A DNA stretch of 64,000 nt. It comes from Eledone cirrhosa. Lineage: Eukaryota. This document shows, piece by piece, positions 2,060 through 39,211 of the stretch. The DNA lies in contig OZ024747.1 in NCBI GenBank assembly GCA_964016885.1, forward strand, positions 22,072,001 to 22,136,000, given 5' to 3'. A model generated the notes under the pieces. The model was not told the DNA's origin, did not search any database, and worked only from the letters and a program-made list of their open reading frames with translations. How positions within the stretch are numbered: position 1 is the first letter of the stretch; each line of letters opens with the position of its first letter. Both the position numbers and the translations under genes were made by a program.

Positions 2060-4419
2060 CAGGCATGTCAAACTGAGGGTCCCCCAAGAGCCGCATGTGT
2101 CACATACGTGTTGTCTGAGGGCCGCACACGACAACTAATTGTGCACATTACAACTAATTAAAGTCATTTTGTAAAATTTATTGCAGAAAAATTTGTTACT
2201 TAAATTTAGAAGCATACAATGTACATACAAATGTTTTAGCAGCATTCAAGAATACAAAGTAATGAAGTGGTTTGACAAGAAAATACAATTTTAAATGACA
2301 ACAAATACTTGCAGCTTGTAACAGCAACAAATACATTGTACAACAATTACAACAGTTCAAAACTGAACATGTATTTGCTACTATTCAATCGTTTTTAGTG
2401 TTTTGTCCTGAGGGTTGACACCTCTTTTTGTTGACAATTTTTTGTATATCTGGCTGAAATGTCTGTACAGTTCCGACTTTGATCAGAGATGACAAATGTT
2501 GATCAGCCAGCCTTGTTCTCTGAGAAGTTTTTGTTAATTTCATGAAGGAAAATAACTGTTCACACATATAGATAGAACCAAACATTGCCATAATCTTTGT
2601 GGCAAACTTTCTGAAGTTTTTTAACTTTTCAGAAAGGTATGAAAATAAAGCAGGTATCCCCCACTTCAAGATACTTTATTCTGAGTGTAGAATCTGACTG
2701 CATTTCCAATAGTTCCATCTGCAGGCTTTCTTCTGACTTGGCAATATCAAAGGTGAATGGTGCTGAGAATAATGCAAACTGATGTTCAAAAGATGAGAAA
2801 TAACAAAATCTTTCCTGAAATTCCTGAAATTCAGGGTGACTGTCATACTTAGCAAAGTTAAGTACAGAATCAGTATTGGCAGTGTTTTTCAGCTCTTTGC
2901 ACGTAGGAAAATGAACCAAATTTTCATTTGACAACTGTGACTTCCATAAGCTTAGTTTTCTAATGAAGCACTTGATGTCATCATACAACTGAGTGATAGG
3001 TTTGTTTTTACCTTGTAATTTCAAATTAATATCAGTTAATTGTGCAGTAATATCCACAGCAAAAGCCAGATCTTGGAGCCAACTTTTATCTTTTATTTCA
3101 TCTGTGTTTTGAACTTTCATCTCCCAAAACAGTTATTTCTTGTCTCAACAAATAGAATCTTTTCAGCACTTTGTGACCTGACAACCAGCAGACTTCTGTG
3201 TATAATGGAACATCGGTGAACTGATATCCATATCTTCCAACACTTGGCTGAACTGATGGCTGTTGAGAGCACGGCCTCTGATATAGTTTACTGTCTTTGT
3301 GACTAAGCTAAGCACATGATGCAATTTTAAAAGCTTTGAACACAAATTTTACTGATGAATAATACAGTGAAAATGCGCAAATGAGGAATTTGAATACGAG
3401 TTTTCTATTTTTATTCGTAACTTGGCAGTAACACCATTATGTCTGCCAACCATATTCGCAGCACCGTCAGTAGATAAGCATGCAAGTTTACTCAAATCAA
3501 AACCATAGTCATGCTGAACCTGCTCGACCTTCTGTCCTGGCTTGTTATAGTGTCATGGATGGGGACCAGTTCAATCAGTTCTTCATACATATTAAACTCA
3601 CTGTCACAAGCCCTGATGAAGAATGCAAGCTGTGCTATTCCGGTGATGTCAACGGTCTCATCAATAGCAATAGAAAAATGTTCAAACCTTGATGATACAG
3701 CCTTCAACTGCTGTTTCAGATCACCTGACATTTCATCAATCTATTCAGTAAAAGTGTTCCAGGTTAGTGAAATGTCTTTGAATAACTGCTTTCTCTGGAC
3801 ATACAATTTCAGCTGTTTTTACAAGTCATTGCTTTACAAAATCTCCTTGACTGTAAGATTTCCCACTCATGGCGATCATTCGACTGAGTTCATAGCTTGC
3901 AGTAACGGAAGTGACATTCTCTTCCTGAATTTACATAAAACAGGTCTGTTTCTGTGTCAAGTTAGCCTTCAATTCCTTGAAACACGCATTGGGCCTTCAT
4001 ATTTATCGTAAGATCGATGGTTCGTTTCATAATGCCGTTGCAGATTGTACTTTTTTGGTGTGGCGATGCAGTTGTCGAAAATTAAACAGTGTATCTTTCC
4101 GTTCACCGTTGTGCACTTTTCTTGAAACACTCGCCCTTCTTCGTTCACTTTCATGTTTCTCTTAGCTGGAGGAGCACTAGCCATTTTAAAAGAAAACACT
4201 TGAAATTTTGAAAGAAAGTTTTCTGTTTACAACTGTTAATGAGCTGCGCGTGATTCGTCGGAAATAAAAAGTAGTTGACAAAAAACGCACAAAAAAAAAA
4301 ATAATCGTATCGAAAATTTTTAAAATTTTATATTACGAAGATAAAACATGCTCGCACTGTAAAAACATTTGTGCGGGTCGCAGGTGTGCTTGCAAAGGTA
4401 CACATGTTTGACATGACTG
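2060..4419 (-). mobile_element. Near full-length degenerate hAT transposon (SPIN/GTF2IRD2-like)
   Basis: 14-bp TIRs CAGGCATGTCAAAC / GTTTGACATGACTG (13/14 match) enclose a transposase pseudogene. Confidence 0.9.
2385..4184 (-). pseudogene. Frameshifted hAT transposase
   Basis: Fragments show BED-like CLI..NLQRHY, FSIAIDETVDITGIAQL (first catalytic D), TDGAANMVG, HCIIHQ (CxxH), LQDLAFAVDI and MFGSIYMCEQLFS, with several stops and frameshifts. Confidence 0.9.
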
Positions 4420-7606: not shown

Positions 7607-7856
7607 TGCATGGCTTAGTGGTTAAAGCATTGGGCTTGCAATCGAAAGGTTGTGAGTTCAATTCTCGGACGGGGTGATGTGTTGTTTCCTTGAGCAAGAC
7701 ACTTTATTTCACGTTGCTCCAGTTTACTCAGCTGTAGAAATGAGTACCGGCCTGCCCGCCCAGCCAGTGGGATGGCGTTATCTTATGGCTAAAACAGCAC
7801 GACGTGCTGTGACCAGCGGCGCCCATTGGCGCCCGACAGACTGGTTGGTCAAGGTG
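7607..7856 (+). mobile_element. tRNA-derived SINE family 2 (CORE-like)
   Basis: A box TGGCTTAGTGG, B box GAGTTCAATTC, core CCTTGAGCAAGACACTTTA; related copies near 24870-25090 and 30925-31230. Confidence 0.75.
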
Positions 7857-24642: not shown

Positions 24643-24660
24643 TGTATATATATATAAGAA

Positions 24661-24847
24661 ATAGAAGCTTTCGCCGTACTTTTGACTAAAGAAATTTCAG
24701 CCTGATAGTGGGGTCTAGAACCCTCTAAGAAATAGAAAAAGATGAGTATTGTACGTCAATACCCATCTTTTTCCATATCTTAGAAGGTTCTAAACCCCAC
24801 TATCAGGCTGAAATTTCTTTAGTCAAAAGTACGGCGAAAGCTTCTAT
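24661..24847. repeat. 187-bp imperfect palindrome next to (TA)n
   Basis: ATAGAAGCTTTCGCCGTACTTTTGAC... is mirrored, with a few arm mismatches. Confidence 0.88.
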
Positions 24848-25112
24848 GTCTATTTTCAAACTATGTACATGGACGTGTGTTGTCTGCTTCAGCAAAACAC
24901 TTTATTTCATATTGCTCTAAACTACTGAGCTGAAAATGATTACCAGCAGCAGCAGCAGCAGATGAGGTTTAACCCTGCGGTGGACTGGCGTCCTCTCCAG
25001 GGAGTATCAAGTCCTTTCAGTCAGTTAAACACCAATGGAACCGGGATAAGCTCCGGCTCGATTAGCCTATGGGCTCTAGACCGACTTTATCTTTTTTTGC
25101 TTACACACGCAC

Positions 25113-25150
<38 letters not shown>

Positions 25151-25153
<3 letters not shown>

Positions 25154-26341
25154 TGGTCGGCGCTACCCTTGACGTGGGAAGAGAGCTTAAGTTCGTGGTT
25201 TGAGCTGTACGAGTGAGTCAACTTGACGCGTTTCTTTTTGCGGCTTAACGCGTGTCCGTACCTTTGGAAGTTCGACTCCTTTCGGAGGTTAGCGCCCTCT
25301 CCGGGGGGTCGGTTCCGAGGTGCGGGTTCAGGTTGGCTCGGCAGGTTTTACCATACTCGGTTGGTCTGCCACATTAAGGACGAACTAATTGGCGCCTAAA
25401 ATAATGATTGAAATAAATTATTTAAAAAAATCATTTATATCCGTACGGTAGCTGGGGGCCGTTTTAAAACCAGTAACCGAGGGGTCGGGATGGGCCCCTT
25501 AGGTTTACTAACCGCAGCGGGCCGTTGTGGTAGTCCCGTGATCATTACAGCAAATCGTGACGGGATACAGGGTTGCCGTGGTGGTTCGCTGTGGTACTTA
25601 ACCACCCTCGAGGGCTGACAGGGAGCCGGGATACGCCCTCTGGATTAGAGCCGGCTCAAACCTTTTTTTTTTTTTTTTTTATCCTTGTTTTTTTTTTTGT
25701 GTGGGCGTGGAAGTGCCTGGAAACTCTCTTCCTAGCTTTTTTTTTTTTTTTAACTCGGTGAGCGGTCGGATATAATATCCGAGAAGGAAAAGTAAGACGT
25801 CTCCGCCGTTCCGCTAGTCTGGTGGTTCGCCTTGCGAAAGCGATAGAACCACCATATCCCCCCGTTGCAGGGTTACGCGTTGCTTAAAGGAAAGTGCTTT
25901 TCTTTTTGTATTATTAACAGTTTCGTTATTTTAGGAATAGGAAGGGAGTGATGAAATGGCTTCTGGAGCGCCCCACTTTTTTTTTTTTTTAGTACAATGG
26001 CACGGCCAAGGAGTTTAGAACCTCTCTGTGCGGGATTCGGGCAACAGGATCTCCGCACGGGGCTCGGTTCGGGTTGCTCACTTGGTGCGTCCAACTGGAT
26101 TGACAAAATGGCACGGCCGGGAGAGCCTAGTGTCTCGCATTGTTCGCTCGCTGAGGGGGTTCTCAGCCAACCCTCGCGGGGTCCATGGCTTGGACTGCTC
26201 TCTTGGCGTGACCAACCGAATTGACAGGGCACACCATTCATGCCATAGTTCGCTTGATGGCATTGGCCCGTGGGACCACACACTTTAAAAAAAGGGAAAG
26301 GCGTCTTGTACTTTGAAAAAAGTATGAGTTAAATGCCAGCT

Positions 26342-26345
<4 letters not shown>
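25151..26345 (+). other. GC-rich, highly structured non-coding island inserted in (CA)n
   Basis: Sharp composition shift; (CA)n on both sides; many hairpins with G-U pairs, a GAAA tetraloop and four poly-T tracts; duplicated domain at 25997-26226; no credible ORF. Confidence 0.6.
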
Positions 26346-26384
<39 letters not shown>

Positions 26385-26418
26385 ACGCACGCACGCACAC
26401 ACACACAGACACACACAC

Positions 26419-26487
<69 letters not shown>

Positions 26488-27469
26488 TAGATAGATAGAT
26501 TGATATATGAGAAGGAGAAAGAGAGAATCAGAGCAGTTATACAAGTAGAGAAATACATTTGAAACAAAATCTGCATCACTATCTTATCTTTATTACGAAA
26601 TAAATGAGAAATATTAGAGTAAATAATACGGGAACAATCCCCGTTGTCATAGATGTTAAGATAATGACCACACCTTGGTTTCATCGGTGTAATTTCTAGG
26701 AGTGATGTTAGGTGAGGTTTTGATATATTGTTTCCGAGGAGATGAGCCATAATCTCTCTGGAAGAACACACCGCCTACGATGTCTAGGTTGGGACTATTG
26801 GCCCCTATCCTAATACATTATAATTAACTTTTTCGTAACCATATCGCCATTGAAAGACACTGCTTATAATTTCCAAATCGTTTTGAAAATAATCAAGCAT
26901 TTGGAAAGATTTATTACTATAACTAACTTTCACATTATTTATCTAGTGATTGGAACATAACTCAACAAATGTTCTTACATAAAATTACGATGGAAGGTTT
27001 TTAGATAAATATAAACATTTTAAAGTGGTAAGGTTACGCTGGTTGCATACACTGAAATAGAGAAAGGCGGAGGAGGAGAATGAGGGGGGGGGGGCTATAA
27101 AAAAATTACTGATTCGTAATTACTGTTTAAAATATAATTCAAAAAAGTGTTGAAAATATTTACAGTGATATGCTTATTCTTGAAACCTCATCTTGGAATT
27201 ATTGCGAATTACAGTGTCCACCCAAAGTGTTTTGAAGTCTCCCTGAGCACCAAATACTGGAGACGGACCCGAGGAGGGTTTTTAGATAAATATAAACACT
27301 TTAAAATAAACATCTTTTGTGTCGTAGAATCAGTGCCGGTCTCATGTGGTTTGGTTTCAATAAGGTTAATAGCTAAATATGTGTTATTGACGAGTCAACG
27401 ATTCTCAGCAGAATTGTTTTACTAGAGAATGGGTCACAGATGGCGGCTAGTGATACAGCCACCAGATGT

Positions 27470-35599: not shown

Positions 35600-35911
35600 C
35601 CCAAACATGTCATACTGTGTTATGATGACTCTCCCTGACAATTACGTTAAGGATAAATGTATGCCCCGAGCAAGATGGTTGGATAACATCCATGAGCTTG
35701 GCTGGGAACGCTTGGGGATTCAGCCAGATCAGTTGGAGATGGTTGGTTCTGGCAGGACCCGCTGGGAGGAGTGTTTGAAGACTCTGTCCCCAGGAGGAAT
35801 AAGTGAGAAGAAGAAGAAGAAGAAGAAGAAGAAGAAGGAGGAGGGGGAGGAGGAGGAGGAGGGGGTTAAGAAGAAGAAGAAGAAGAAGAAAGAGGAGGAG
35901 GAGAAAGAGGA

Positions 35912-35912
<1 letters not shown>
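35600..35912 (+). mobile_element. RTE 3' end with (GAA)n/(GAG)n tail
   Basis: PRARWLDNIHELGW...RTRWEECL; same family as 9545-9830. Confidence 0.7.
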
Positions 35913-35978
<66 letters not shown>

Positions 35979-38900
35979 TGGTTTATTTAAATTAGATGAA
36001 CAAAAATTGGCCGGGCAGGCTCGGGTAATAAGAACTAATGGGTGGATAAGCGAGCTGGAACTGGAGGAACTGAGCAGAGAGAATGGCTTGGAGATGGCGG
36101 GTGTAGTATGCCAGACAAGCGAGCCGGTGGGAAATGAAGGTGAGGAGGTCCTGAGAACGGAGGAACCACCCGAAGCAGACAATGATCTGAGTACTGAGAT
36201 AAATAATACCTGGAACAGAGATACGGCCACTGAGGAGATGAATGCTGACGGGCTAGGACAAGATTCGGTTGACATCCTAAATTTAGTGGTAGATGAATTG
36301 AACAATGATAGTGGGAGACCTATGAACCTAAGATTTGTAGACAGGAAAAAGTTAAAAGAAACAACAGCTAAGGTAAACAAAGTCATCCCATACCTTGAGG
36401 CGAGGAGCCTTCACCAGTGCAACAATATCCTCAGAGCAACAGCAAATACGGTGAGGAAACTACTTGGTATAAAAGCGAGAGGAAACAACAGACAAGAAAG
36501 AGCAGAGCCGTGGTGGAAGAAGCGACTGAGTGGGCAAATCGGGGAAATGAGAAATGACATAGGAAAGCTTGAGTCACTACTGAATGGGACACTAAAAAAC
36601 ATAGGCACTAAAAATAGACTGGAAATAAAATACAAAACTAGGAGTAAAAAGCTAAATATTATCATAGAGGAATTGAAGCAACGCATTGTAGCAAAGAGTG
36701 CAAAAATCAGGCGATACGAGAACAGAGTCAGTCAGTATAAACAGAACCGCATGTTCGACAACAACCAGAAGATGCTGTTTGGACAGCTTGAGGGCAAAGA
36801 AAGAGGCAACGACTTGATCCCTGGGGCGGAGCAAACTAAAACATTCTGGAGAGGAATATGGGAGCAGGATGTTAGACACAATGCCCAGGCAGGGTGGATT
36901 GAGACAGTACAGAGGGAGATCGGTGAGCAGGCACAGCAACAGACTGATTTGAGTATCACAGTTGAAACTCTTAAGGGACAAGCCAAAAAACTAACCAACT
37001 GGAAATCACCAGGCCCAGATGGTGTGCAGGGGTATTGGATTAAACATCTAACATCCCTCCACCCGAAGCTGACGGCCATGTTCAATGACTGCTTGGTGTC
37101 GGGTGAGGTGCCAGAGTCGTTGACAAAAGGTACCACAGTTCTGATAATGAAAGACCGAATCAAGGGTAATGATGCTACCAACTATAGACCTATCACATGT
37201 CTGCCCGTAATGTGGAAACTGTTGACGAGCATTGTGTCTGAGGAAATCTACCATCACCTCCACACAAACAACTTGTTACCGGACGAACAGAAAGGATGCC
37301 GAAAGAAGTCACGTGGTACAAAGGACCAGTTGCTTATTGATAAGATGGTAATGGGGAATTGCAGGAGGAGACACACTGATCTTGCCATGGGATGGATAGA
37401 CTACAGAAAGGCATTTGACATGGTGCCTCATTCCTGGATCACCAAAAGCCTGGAGATCTTCAGGGTGGCGGATAACATCAGACAGTTGCTAGGCAGGAGT
37501 ATGGGGTCCTGGGAGACAGAGTTGACATCAACTGGAGTATCCTTGGGAAGCGTGAAGATCAAGAGAGGTATCTTCCAGGGAGATAGCCTGTCCCCTCTGT
37601 TGTTTGTCCTTGCTCTGATGCCCTTGACCATTATGCTGCGAAAAGTGAGAGCAGGATACAAGTTGGGAAGGGGAGAGCTTACCATCAATCACCTCCTCTT
37701 CATGGACGATCTTAAGCTCTTCGGGAAAAGTGAGAAGGAGTTGGATGTGCTTGTTGACACTGTCCGTATTTTCAGCAGTGATATATGTATGCAGTTTGGT
37801 ATTGGTAAATGTGGAGTCATTGTGATGAAGAGGGGTAGGTTGAGCAGAAGTAACGGGATCCAGATACCAACAGGTGAGATGATAAAGGAAATTGACTCTG
37901 AGGAAGGATACAAGTATTTGGGCGTTCTGGCGGCTGATGGCATAAAGAACAAAAAAATGAAGGAATTGTTAAGAACTGAATACATTCGGAGAGTAAGGAG
38001 CGTATTGAAGTCACATCTGAACAGCAGAAATGCCATAAGCGCAGTAAATTCCCGAGCTGTGTCTATTATTAGGTACAGTGCGGGAATTCTGAGATGGAAT
38101 GTTGCTGAACAGAAAGAAATGGATAGGAAGACTAGGAAGCTATTGACTATCTACAACATGTTCCACAAGAGGAGTGATGTCGATAGACTCTACCTAAGGA
38201 GATCTGAGGGTGGAAGAGGTCTTATCAGCATAGAGGACTGTGTTCAGATGGAGAAAAACAACCTATACAAATACGTGACCTATAGTAAGGAGCCAATGCT
38301 CAGAGCTGTACTGAAGGAGGGGACAGTAGGCCAGGGGATGTCCAGGGAGGAAATAACATCAAGGAGGAAGAGCAGCCTTAAGGGAAAACCCCTTCATAGT
38401 ACCTTCTTTGAGAAAACTGAATTTAGAGATCCACAGACATGGAACTGGTTGAGAAGAGGAGACCTCAAAAAGGCTACAGAAGGAATGCTAATGGCTGCGC
38501 AGGAGCAGGCCCTCAAAACGAAGTGGTTGAAGCACCATATCTACAAGGAGGAGGCCAGCCCACTGTGCAGGATCTGTGGAGAGAGAGAGGAGACTGTGGC
38601 TCACATTGTGTCCGAGTGTAAACACCTAGCCCAGACCCACTATAAGGGCTGGAGACACGATGTGATGGGCAGGGTGATCCACTGGCACCTGTGCAAAGTA
38701 AACAATCTACCACATTCTGAGAAATGGTATGAGCATAGGCCAGAGGCGGTGATGGAGAACAATCAGGTGAAGGTGCTGTGGGATTTTAGGATACAGACGG
38801 ACAAAAAACTGGAACACAATAGACCTGACCTGGTGGTTGTGGACAAAGAAAAAAGATCGTGCCTGATTGTGGATGTGGCCTGCCCGTTCGACACGAGAGT

Positions 38901-39211
38901 GCAAGAGAAGGAGAGGGAGAAAATTAACCGATACCAGGACCTAAAGTGGGAGGTGAAAAGGATTTGGAACTGCCATGAAGTCAAAGTGATCCCGATTGTC
39001 ATAGGCGCACTGGGGACTATCTCCAAAAGTTTCCAGGGATGGTTAAAGAAAATCGGCCCCTTCACGCTTTTTGGAACGCTTCAAAAGGCATGCTTGCTTG
39101 GAACAGCAAGAACCCTCCGATACGTCCTGAATATCTGAGGCTGCAGGTAGTGGCTTGATATTCAATCCAACGGACTTTCCAGTTAACCAACATCAATGAC
39201 TGAGATTCAAG

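What the first reader, a model, noticed from the sequence alone, without database searches (positions are those of the whole stretch)
25151..26345. Unassigned 1.2-kb structured-RNA-like island inserted in a (CA)n microsatellite
Seen: an abrupt GC/CpG-rich segment with (CA)n on both sides, ending in a short A run, with no credible ORF. It is dense in stems, including GGCGCTA (25159) with TGGCGCC (25390) or TAGCGCC (25290), AGTTCGT/ACGAACT, GAGCCGG/CCGGCTC, TCGGATAT/ATATCCGA, TGGTGGTTC..TTGC-GAAA-GCGA..GAACCACCA and TGCCAT/ATGGCA. Four poly-T tracts separate the domains. Several stems need G-U wobbles that work only on the + strand, which points to selection on RNA rather than DNA palindromy. 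Inference: either a non-autonomous, microsatellite-targeted retroposon made of structured UTRs, or a retrocopy of an unknown long ncRNA.
Basis: partly seen in the sequence, partly recalled or inferred. Interest (0 to 1): 0.85.

Follow-up and report, generated by a model that had tools for sequence, protein, structure and literature searches.

The report
Stray non-autonomous R2 ribozyme retroelement
This 1.2-kb island is one copy of a protein-less, internally deleted form of the R2 retrotransposon. Its sister copies sit at R2's usual site in 28S rRNA genes, it carries a predicted self-cleaving ribozyme, and this copy likely landed in a CA repeat by an off-target insertion, so it is a new member of a known kind of element rather than a new RNA.

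Summary
[quoted passage not shown] Of 15 full-length 1.15-1.38-kb copies found, 14 start at the canonical R2 site in 28S rDNA; only the window copy lies in (CA)n. Both ends are homologous to a ~4.5-kb R2 family in the same genome with three N-terminal zinc fingers, RT and endonuclease motifs (best PDB hits are R2 proteins). About 3.6 kb is deleted near 25660. The 5' end fits an HDV-like ribozyme: 96% of cells pair and all 7 P2 pairs change on both sides across 26 sequences. Its P1 partner is 28S sequence, giving predicted cleavage at about -11. 3' UTR hairpins also covary. The SIDE copies form their own lineage. Ribozyme activity, transcription and trans-mobilisation are inferred, not shown, and no intact copy of the presumed helper family was found. 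In the papers I read, SIDE families are described only in Drosophila, so this is a useful new member of a known kind.

The parts
25103..25149 (+). Left (CA)n flank (host microsatellite, insertion site)
   Evidence: TRF; sequence
25148..25154 (+). Predicted P1 5' strand. CTCTT (25150-25154) is a remnant of the 28S target (-9 to -5). Here it reads CACUCUU, 6 of 7 pairs, where 28S-inserted copies have CUCUCUU, 7 of 7
25159..25396 (+). Predicted HDV-like ribozyme core: P2 25159-65/25390-96; P3 25166-68/25176-78; L3 UUGACGU 25169-75; P1' AAGAGAG 25179-85; single P1.1 pair G25171-C25186; long variable P4 25191-25381; predicted catalytic C25385 in J4/2 CUAAU
25400..25656 (+). Segment homologous to the first ~65 codons of the R2 family-A ORF; frame dead here; conserved hairpins
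25657..25698 (+). Internal-deletion junction: family-A nt ~378 joined to the poly-T at ~3965 of its 3' UTR; about 3.6 kb lost (zinc fingers, RT, endonuclease)
   Evidence: local BLAST against three family-A copies
25750..25885 (+). R2 3' UTR structured domain (TCGGATAT/ATATCCGA and GGTGGTTC/GAACCACC stems)
25997..26226 (+). Imperfect tandem units in the 3' UTR; extra units in copies L011, L015 and L017
26227..26345 (+). R2 3' terminal domain with covarying hairpin 26305-14/26319-28; element ends GCCAGCTAAAA with no downstream 28S
26346..26419 (+). Right (CA)n flank

Best explanation
The island is one copy of a multi-copy, ORF-less, internally deleted R2 family (an R2 SIDE) whose other copies sit at the R2 site of 28S rDNA; it is predicted to cut itself out of the rRNA transcript with an HDV-like ribozyme and likely borrows the protein of a full-length R2, and this copy likely reached the (CA)n by an off-target insertion. 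Shown: the family, its target site, homology of both ends to R2 family A, the deletion, and the covarying folds. Inferred step 1: 28S-resident copies are co-transcribed by Pol I. Inferred step 2: the ribozyme pairs AAGAGAG with 28S CUCUCUU and cleaves about 11 nt upstream of the insertion site. Inferred step 3: family-A R2 protein binds the 3' UTR and copies the RNA by target-primed reverse transcription, normally into another 28S gene. Inferred step 4: this copy was primed at a break in a CA repeat, starting at the exact 3' end, with the 5' end joined through short C-N-C microhomology. Inferred step 5: without the rDNA promoter and with a mismatched P1, this copy is probably dead on arrival.
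For: 14 of 15 full-length copies have 28S ...GGGAGTAACTA(TGACTCTCT) directly upstream. 13 of those 14 run straight into TAGCC (one reads TATCC); the 14th runs into a second R2 and then TAGCC. The flank is LSU rRNA by Rfam, 885 bits. Family A has CCHH/CCHC/CCHH fingers, YADD, a CCHC knuckle and PD..D motifs, and its best PDB hits are R2 proteins at E 1.6e-114 to 1.6e-62. The SIDE matches family A at about 83% over the aligned 5' blocks and 70-72% over the 3' UTR. Ribozyme: 96.3% of 483 cells pair against 84.8 +/- 0.8 shuffled (0 of 500 reach it) and 36-46% when slid; 11 of 19 pairs change on both sides. 14 SIDE 3' UTRs group apart from 7 family-A ones at 100/100, and full-length copies are 81-100% identical, so the SIDE has replicated as its own lineage. 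The 3 non-rDNA loci with a 3' end in view (window, L031, L032) stop at the element end with no TAGCC. The 5 with an intact 5' end keep at most about 6 nt of 28S. That pattern fits RNA-mediated insertion rather than a moved piece of rDNA.
Against: No family-A copy with a complete reading frame was found among the best 147 scored RT matches; the one intact R2 ORF seen (1214 aa) is family B, whose 3' end does not match the SIDE. The predicted first ribozyme base is C rather than the usual G, and P1.1 is a single G-C pair. Family-B rows had no P1 partner in the 14 nt examined. Covariation counts are inflated by relatedness, and 3 family-B rows supply part of them. Rfam has no ribozyme hit here. 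A target-site duplication cannot be read in a pure repeat, and the junctions are not read-confirmed.
Confidence: 0.9

Rival explanations
1. Same element identity, but this copy was placed in (CA)n by another machine: a microsatellite-inserting RLE-type LINE acting in trans, or capture of SIDE cDNA during repair of a break, rather than by R2 protein. This rival competes only with step 4.
For: The window holds an intact RLE-type LINE between (AAT)n and (AAG)n at 35803-39138. 3 other non-rDNA R2/SIDE loci lie within about 15 nt of another simple repeat (L031, L032, L044). A ribozyme fragment with a 15-bp duplication (L030) does not look like an R2 product.
Against: The copy is full length and ends exactly at the element's 3' end with no added tail, like L031 and L032. 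Dinucleotide arrays of 6 or more units cover 6.9% of the window, and CA/TG arrays 2.0% in 58 arrays, so chance contact with a repeat is common.
Confidence: 0.2
2. A microsatellite-targeted non-autonomous retroposon, or a SIDE subfamily that has switched target from 28S to (CA)n.
For: (CA)n on both sides of this copy. Genome searches score only the best candidates and skip simple repeats, so copies may be missed.
Against: 1 of 15 full-length copies and 1 of 9 non-rDNA loci with a junction in view are at (CA)n. In the 3' UTR the closest relatives are a copy in an R2 chain (97%) and a 28S-inserted copy (96%). The ribozyme needs 28S sequence for P1.
Confidence: 0.04
3. Retrocopy of an unknown long non-coding RNA.
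For: No ORF, no Rfam match at gathering level, strand-specific folding.
Against: Both ends are collinear with an RT-coding R2 family and the family occupies the 28S site. The A run is not a poly(A) tail.
Confidence: 0.01
4. Assembly artefact: an rDNA-resident SIDE mis-joined into a microsatellite.
For: Both junctions are in simple repeats and were skipped by the read tool.
Against: The junctions fall at the element's exact biological ends with no rDNA carried along. The window's own 3' variant occurs at single-copy depth in another data set, on contigs that run 31-34 nt past 26334.
Confidence: 0.03

Closest known systems
R2Dwi_SIDE of Drosophila willistoni (Eickbush & Eickbush 2012, PMC3414825; read parts 1, 2 and 4 of 6)
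   Same: ORF-less joint of R2 5' ribozyme and 3' UTR, inserted at the 28S R2 site with R2-like junction variation, diverged 20-35% from its parent, with compensatory changes in both folds.
   Different: About 1.2 kb against 529 bp; no poly(A) tail; the parent has R2A-type fingers; keeps about 250 nt of the ORF start; P1 is predicted to use 28S sequence; very short J1/2 and ~190-nt P4; copies are more diverse (81-100% against <3% divergence); has an off-target copy outside rDNA.
R2 HDV-like ribozymes (Eickbush, Burke & Eickbush 2013, PMC3774820; read Results and Discussion)
   Same: Nested P1/P2/P3/P1.1/P4 order, L3 U and G, catalytic C then A in J4/2, P1 5' strand drawn from 28S, variable P4.
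   Different: Predicted cut at -11, a position not named in the text I read (it names -9, -13, -25, -27, -28, -29, -36 and 0; figures and supplements were not seen). P1.1 is G(L3)-C rather than the C-G I recall for HDV and CPEB3.
R2A-clade R2 elements (Kojima et al. 2016, PMC5035012; passages only; PDB 9NL2, 9DOU, 9NL3)
   Same: Parent family A and a second family B have three N-terminal zinc fingers (two CCHH, one CCHC), RT and an RLE motif, and use the canonical 28S site.
   Different: Several family-A copies lie outside rDNA here. That paper reports non-specific R2 families in flatworms and a single internally deleted copy in budgerigar, and has no hit for octopus, cephalopod or squid.
Microsatellite-targeted LINEs such as Dong/R4, Waldo and Mino (recalled, not tested)
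   Same: An insertion flanked by a simple repeat on both sides.
   Different: This family's target is 28S; the (CA)n site is a single exception.

Membership tests
R2 SIDE | 5' end homologous to an R2 of the same host and folding as an HDV-like ribozyme | tested here: met
R2 SIDE | Ribozyme self-cleaves | not testable with these tools
   needs an in vitro assay
R2 SIDE | 3' end homologous to the R2 3' UTR with its structure kept | tested here: met
   70-72% identity; covarying hairpins
R2 SIDE | Coding region deleted | tested here: met
   about 3.6 kb missing; longest + strand ATG-ORF is 75 aa
R2 SIDE | Family inserts at the 28S R2 site with R2-like junction variation | tested here: met
   14 of 15 full-length copies, with small deletions and 28S duplications at 5' junctions
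R2 SIDE | This particular copy is in 28S | tested here: not met
   (CA)n on both sides and only CTCTT of 28S; read as an off-target copy of the family
R2 SIDE | Replicates as its own multi-copy lineage | tested here: met
   14 SIDE against 7 family-A 3' UTRs split at 100/100; subfamilies
R2 SIDE | Mobilised in trans by an autonomous R2 | tested here: inconclusive
   the matching family exists but no intact ORF of it was found; rDNA is under-assembled (1 empty site)
R2 SIDE | Co-transcribed with 28S | not testable with these tools
   needs RNA reads
R2A clade (parent family A) | Three N-terminal zinc fingers, two CCHH and one CCHC | tested here: met
   motif scan; definition from a PMC5035012 passage
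R2A clade (parent family A) | RT tree placement with reference R2A elements | not tested
   only similarity ranks: PDB 9NL2, 9DOU and 9NL3 score above 8GH6
Microsatellite-targeted retroposon | Most copies flanked by the same repeat | tested here: not met
   1 of 15 full-length copies; 1 of 9 non-rDNA loci
SINE | Head derived from tRNA, 7SL or 5S RNA | tested here: not met
   no such Rfam match in 25000-26500 at E up to 10
Processed retrocopy | Poly(A) tail added at the 3' end | tested here: not met
   the same AAAA end occurs in 28S-inserted copies L004-L006, L016 and L033

The most novel reading that the evidence does not exclude
An old, successful SIDE lineage outside insects that maps the cis-acting RNA needs of an R2A element. 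Besides the ribozyme and 3' UTR, a ~250-nt structured segment overlapping the ORF start is required: two independent deletion derivatives both break near nt 380-390. One subfamily carries its own ~95-nt 28S-like decoy target, which captured a rival R2 lineage. The helper R2A lineage has relaxed specificity and scatters copies outside rDNA.
Probability: 0.25. Interest if true: 0.62.

Novelty: new member of a known kind. Interest (0 to 1): 0.38.

Why it matters
R2 SIDEs were described as rare (one R2 SIDE in a 39-species Drosophila survey, PMC3414825). A full-text search for 'short internally deleted element' with 'R2 element' and 'SIDE' gave 3 papers, and two searches pairing R2 with octopus/cephalopod or mollusc terms listed nothing on such an element (listings, plus passages of PMC10294476). 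Repbase, Dfam, paywalled papers and supplements could not be checked. A natural minimal template for an R2A-type protein is relevant to R2-based transgene insertion, where 5' ribozyme and 3' UTR modules matter (PMC11331408, passages). The copies outside rDNA record natural off-target events. The ribozyme is a testable variant that Rfam does not detect. It is not a new class of RNA or of mobile element.

Tried and rejected
Rfam at gathering level on the window gave only one tRNA-like hit at 7611-7668; at E up to 10 on the island it gave repeat-driven or weak hits only, and no ribozyme family on a 28S-junction copy. Two multi-locus Rfam calls failed internally; one locus alone worked (45). I first considered twister, pistol and hammerhead folds, and an HDV fold with GGCGCTA as P1, by eye. 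I dropped them because no G follows 25396 for P1.1, while the P2 assignment gives L3, P1' and J4/2 in order and covaries. A pseudoknot at 25457-25500 was dropped in favour of the covarying hairpin. The TGCCAT/ATGGCA stem was not recovered in that register by RNAalifold. Expression: no RNA holder listed, which says nothing either way. Read depth over the island is higher than over the single-copy flank but is not a copy number. The RAD-seq runs barely cover the island (X4) or not at all (X5). Only 1 empty 28S site against 19 exact downstream matches was not used as an insertion rate, because rDNA arrays collapse in assemblies. Two look-ups of earlier scan findings returned nothing. Rows left out of the ribozyme count: 5 of 31 extracted (2 near-duplicates, 2 with the 5' P2 strand truncated, 1 with P2 off by one base). 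L002, L030, L032 and L033, with truncated or replaced 5' ends and P2 pairing of 2-4 of 7, were not in the extraction list. A Rep-like 91-aa frame in L038 had no Pfam hit.

Full report
Observation. The island is there as described: GC 49.6% against 36.6%, four T tracts, (CA)n on both sides and no credible ORF. Folding is clearly better than shuffles for the first 300 nt (z -3.32) and patchy elsewhere. Rfam names nothing in it. The host is a 3.0-Gb, microsatellite-rich animal genome; it looks like an octopus to me, which is an untested impression.

Family and target. A search of the own genome gave 74 matches from 40 of 53 candidates scored, so counts are lower bounds. Fifteen loci carry the whole short element (1152-1377 nt from P2 to the end; 81-100% identity). 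Fourteen begin directly after 28S sequence ...GGGAGTAACTA(TGACTCTCT), with small deletions and tandem 28S duplications. Thirteen of these continue into TAGCCAAATGCC (one reads TATCC), and one continues into a second R2 and then TAGCC. The flank is LSU rRNA by Rfam, and this is the R2 insertion site. The window copy is the one exception.

Parent. Split matches with gaps of about 4 kb led to longer elements. Family A (~4.5 kb) has three N-terminal zinc fingers, RT, a CCHC knuckle and PD..D motifs, and its best solved relatives are R2 proteins. Three fingers define the R2A clade in PMC5035012 (passage); I built no reference tree. The SIDE is collinear with family A from its start to about nt 378 and again from the poly-T near nt 3965, so about 3.6 kb is deleted at window 25657-25698. 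The kept 5' part includes the first ~65 codons of the ORF, no longer open, with covarying hairpins (7 of 20 pairs). In a 3' UTR tree, 14 SIDE rows separate from 7 family-A rows at 100/100, at 70-72% identity, so this is a lineage and not a one-off deletion. Against the simple picture, no family-A copy with a complete frame turned up among 147 scored RT matches. The intact 1214-aa R2 found is family B, whose 3' end does not match. Active family-A copies may lie in unassembled rDNA (1 empty site in the assembly), which is an inference.

Ribozyme. The 5' 250 nt fit a nested HDV-like fold: P2 GGCGCUA/UGGCGCC, P3 CCC/GGG, L3 UUGACGU, P1' AAGAGAG, one P1.1 G-C pair, a ~190-nt variable P4, and J4/2 CUAAU. 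I counted pairs on 26 of 31 extracted sequences (12 SIDE, 11 family A, 3 family B). 96.3% of 483 cells pair, against 84.8% in shuffles (0 of 500) and 36-46% for slid partners. All 7 P2 pairs and 3 of 4 basal P4 pairs change on both sides. The shuffle ignores relatedness, so this is strong but not a probability. P1' pairs 7 of 7 with 28S CUCUCUU in 14 of the 15 family-A and SIDE rows that have 28S upstream, and 6 of 7 in the window. This predicts cleavage at -11, at a C. PMC3774820 (Results and Discussion read) reports cuts 9-36 nt upstream in 28S, and by my count its -9 and -29 sites are also C. Activity is untested. Two 3' UTR domains covary as well (6 of 28 and 6 of 32 pairs), most clearly the terminal hairpin at 26305-26328.

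The window copy. It keeps only CTCTT of 28S at the 5' end and stops at the element's own 3' end. Two non-rDNA family-A copies end the same way, and the five non-rDNA loci with an intact 5' end keep at most about 6 nt of 28S. This is what insertion of a ribozyme-processed RNA would leave, and not what a moved rDNA fragment would. Only 1 of 9 non-rDNA loci with a junction in view is at (CA)n, and CA/TG arrays cover 2% of this window, so there is no sign of targeting. Which enzyme made this insertion is not shown; R2 off-target priming is the simplest reading, and another LINE or repair capture remains possible. Independent contigs match this copy's own 3' variant at single-copy depth but do not show the junctions.

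Comparison and verdict. It works like, and meets the testable defining features of, the R2 SIDE of Eickbush & Eickbush 2012 (PMC3414825, parts 1, 2 and 4 of 6 read); this copy is merely off target. It differs in size, parent clade, predicted ribozyme geometry and retention of the ORF-start RNA. My searches listed no report of such an element in this kind of host, but PMC5035012 mentions a single internally deleted R2 copy in budgerigar and PMC4370867 (listing only) describes replicating degenerate R2 in a stick insect. Repbase, Dfam and supplements were not seen. Verdict: new member of a known kind; interest 0.38.

Noticed in passing
L015, L017, L035, L043 (inserted at the position of window 25510): A SIDE subfamily carries an internal ~95-nt degenerate copy of the 28S sequence upstream of the R2 site. 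In L035 it is duplicated and a family-B R2 is inserted at its end, as if it had served as a decoy target.
   Followed up: partly
L036:564-1083 and L038:2466-2779: A second, independent ~520-nt deletion derivative of family A (nt ~390 joined to ~4434), and a related piece with a break near nt 447.
   Followed up: partly
G000:C18:15.04-15.08 Mb (L036-L038, L115): A head-to-tail chain of family-A, family-B and SIDE copies, many truncated, starting at a 28S site; repeated re-insertion at the regenerated target is one reading.
   Followed up: partly
L110:1264-4905 (G000:C2): An intact 1214-aa R2 of a second lineage (family B; about 59% RT identity to family A) in 28S, with three zinc fingers and the same ribozyme type with a different, compensating P2.
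   Followed up: partly
L030 (G000:C12:38.41 Mb): A SIDE ribozyme-core fragment (P3 to J4/2) outside rDNA, flanked by a 15-bp direct repeat.
   Followed up: no
L031, L032, L042, L100, L101, L102: Family-A R2 copies outside rDNA, two nearly full length and three in tandem in L101, suggesting recurrent off-target insertion.
   Followed up: partly
window 35803-39138 +: An intact ~1040-aa RT plus RLE-type LINE between (AAG)n/(AAT)n arrays; the Dong/R4-like label is recalled; RT by Pfam and distant R2 hits in PDB.
   Followed up: partly
L038:2269-2460: A short AT-rich insert whose frame reminds me of the helicase part of a circular ssDNA-virus Rep protein (recalled); no Pfam hit.
   Followed up: partly
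window 24700-25055 and 7611-7668: Very high-copy repeats directly left of the island, including an inverted pair near 24658-24842 (depth), and a tRNA-like SINE head at 7611.
   Followed up: no
G000 C2, C3, C4, C6, C7, C10, C11, C12, C25: 28S sequences with R2 or SIDE insertions are spread over at least nine large contigs, some in 20-40-kb spaced series.
   Followed up: no
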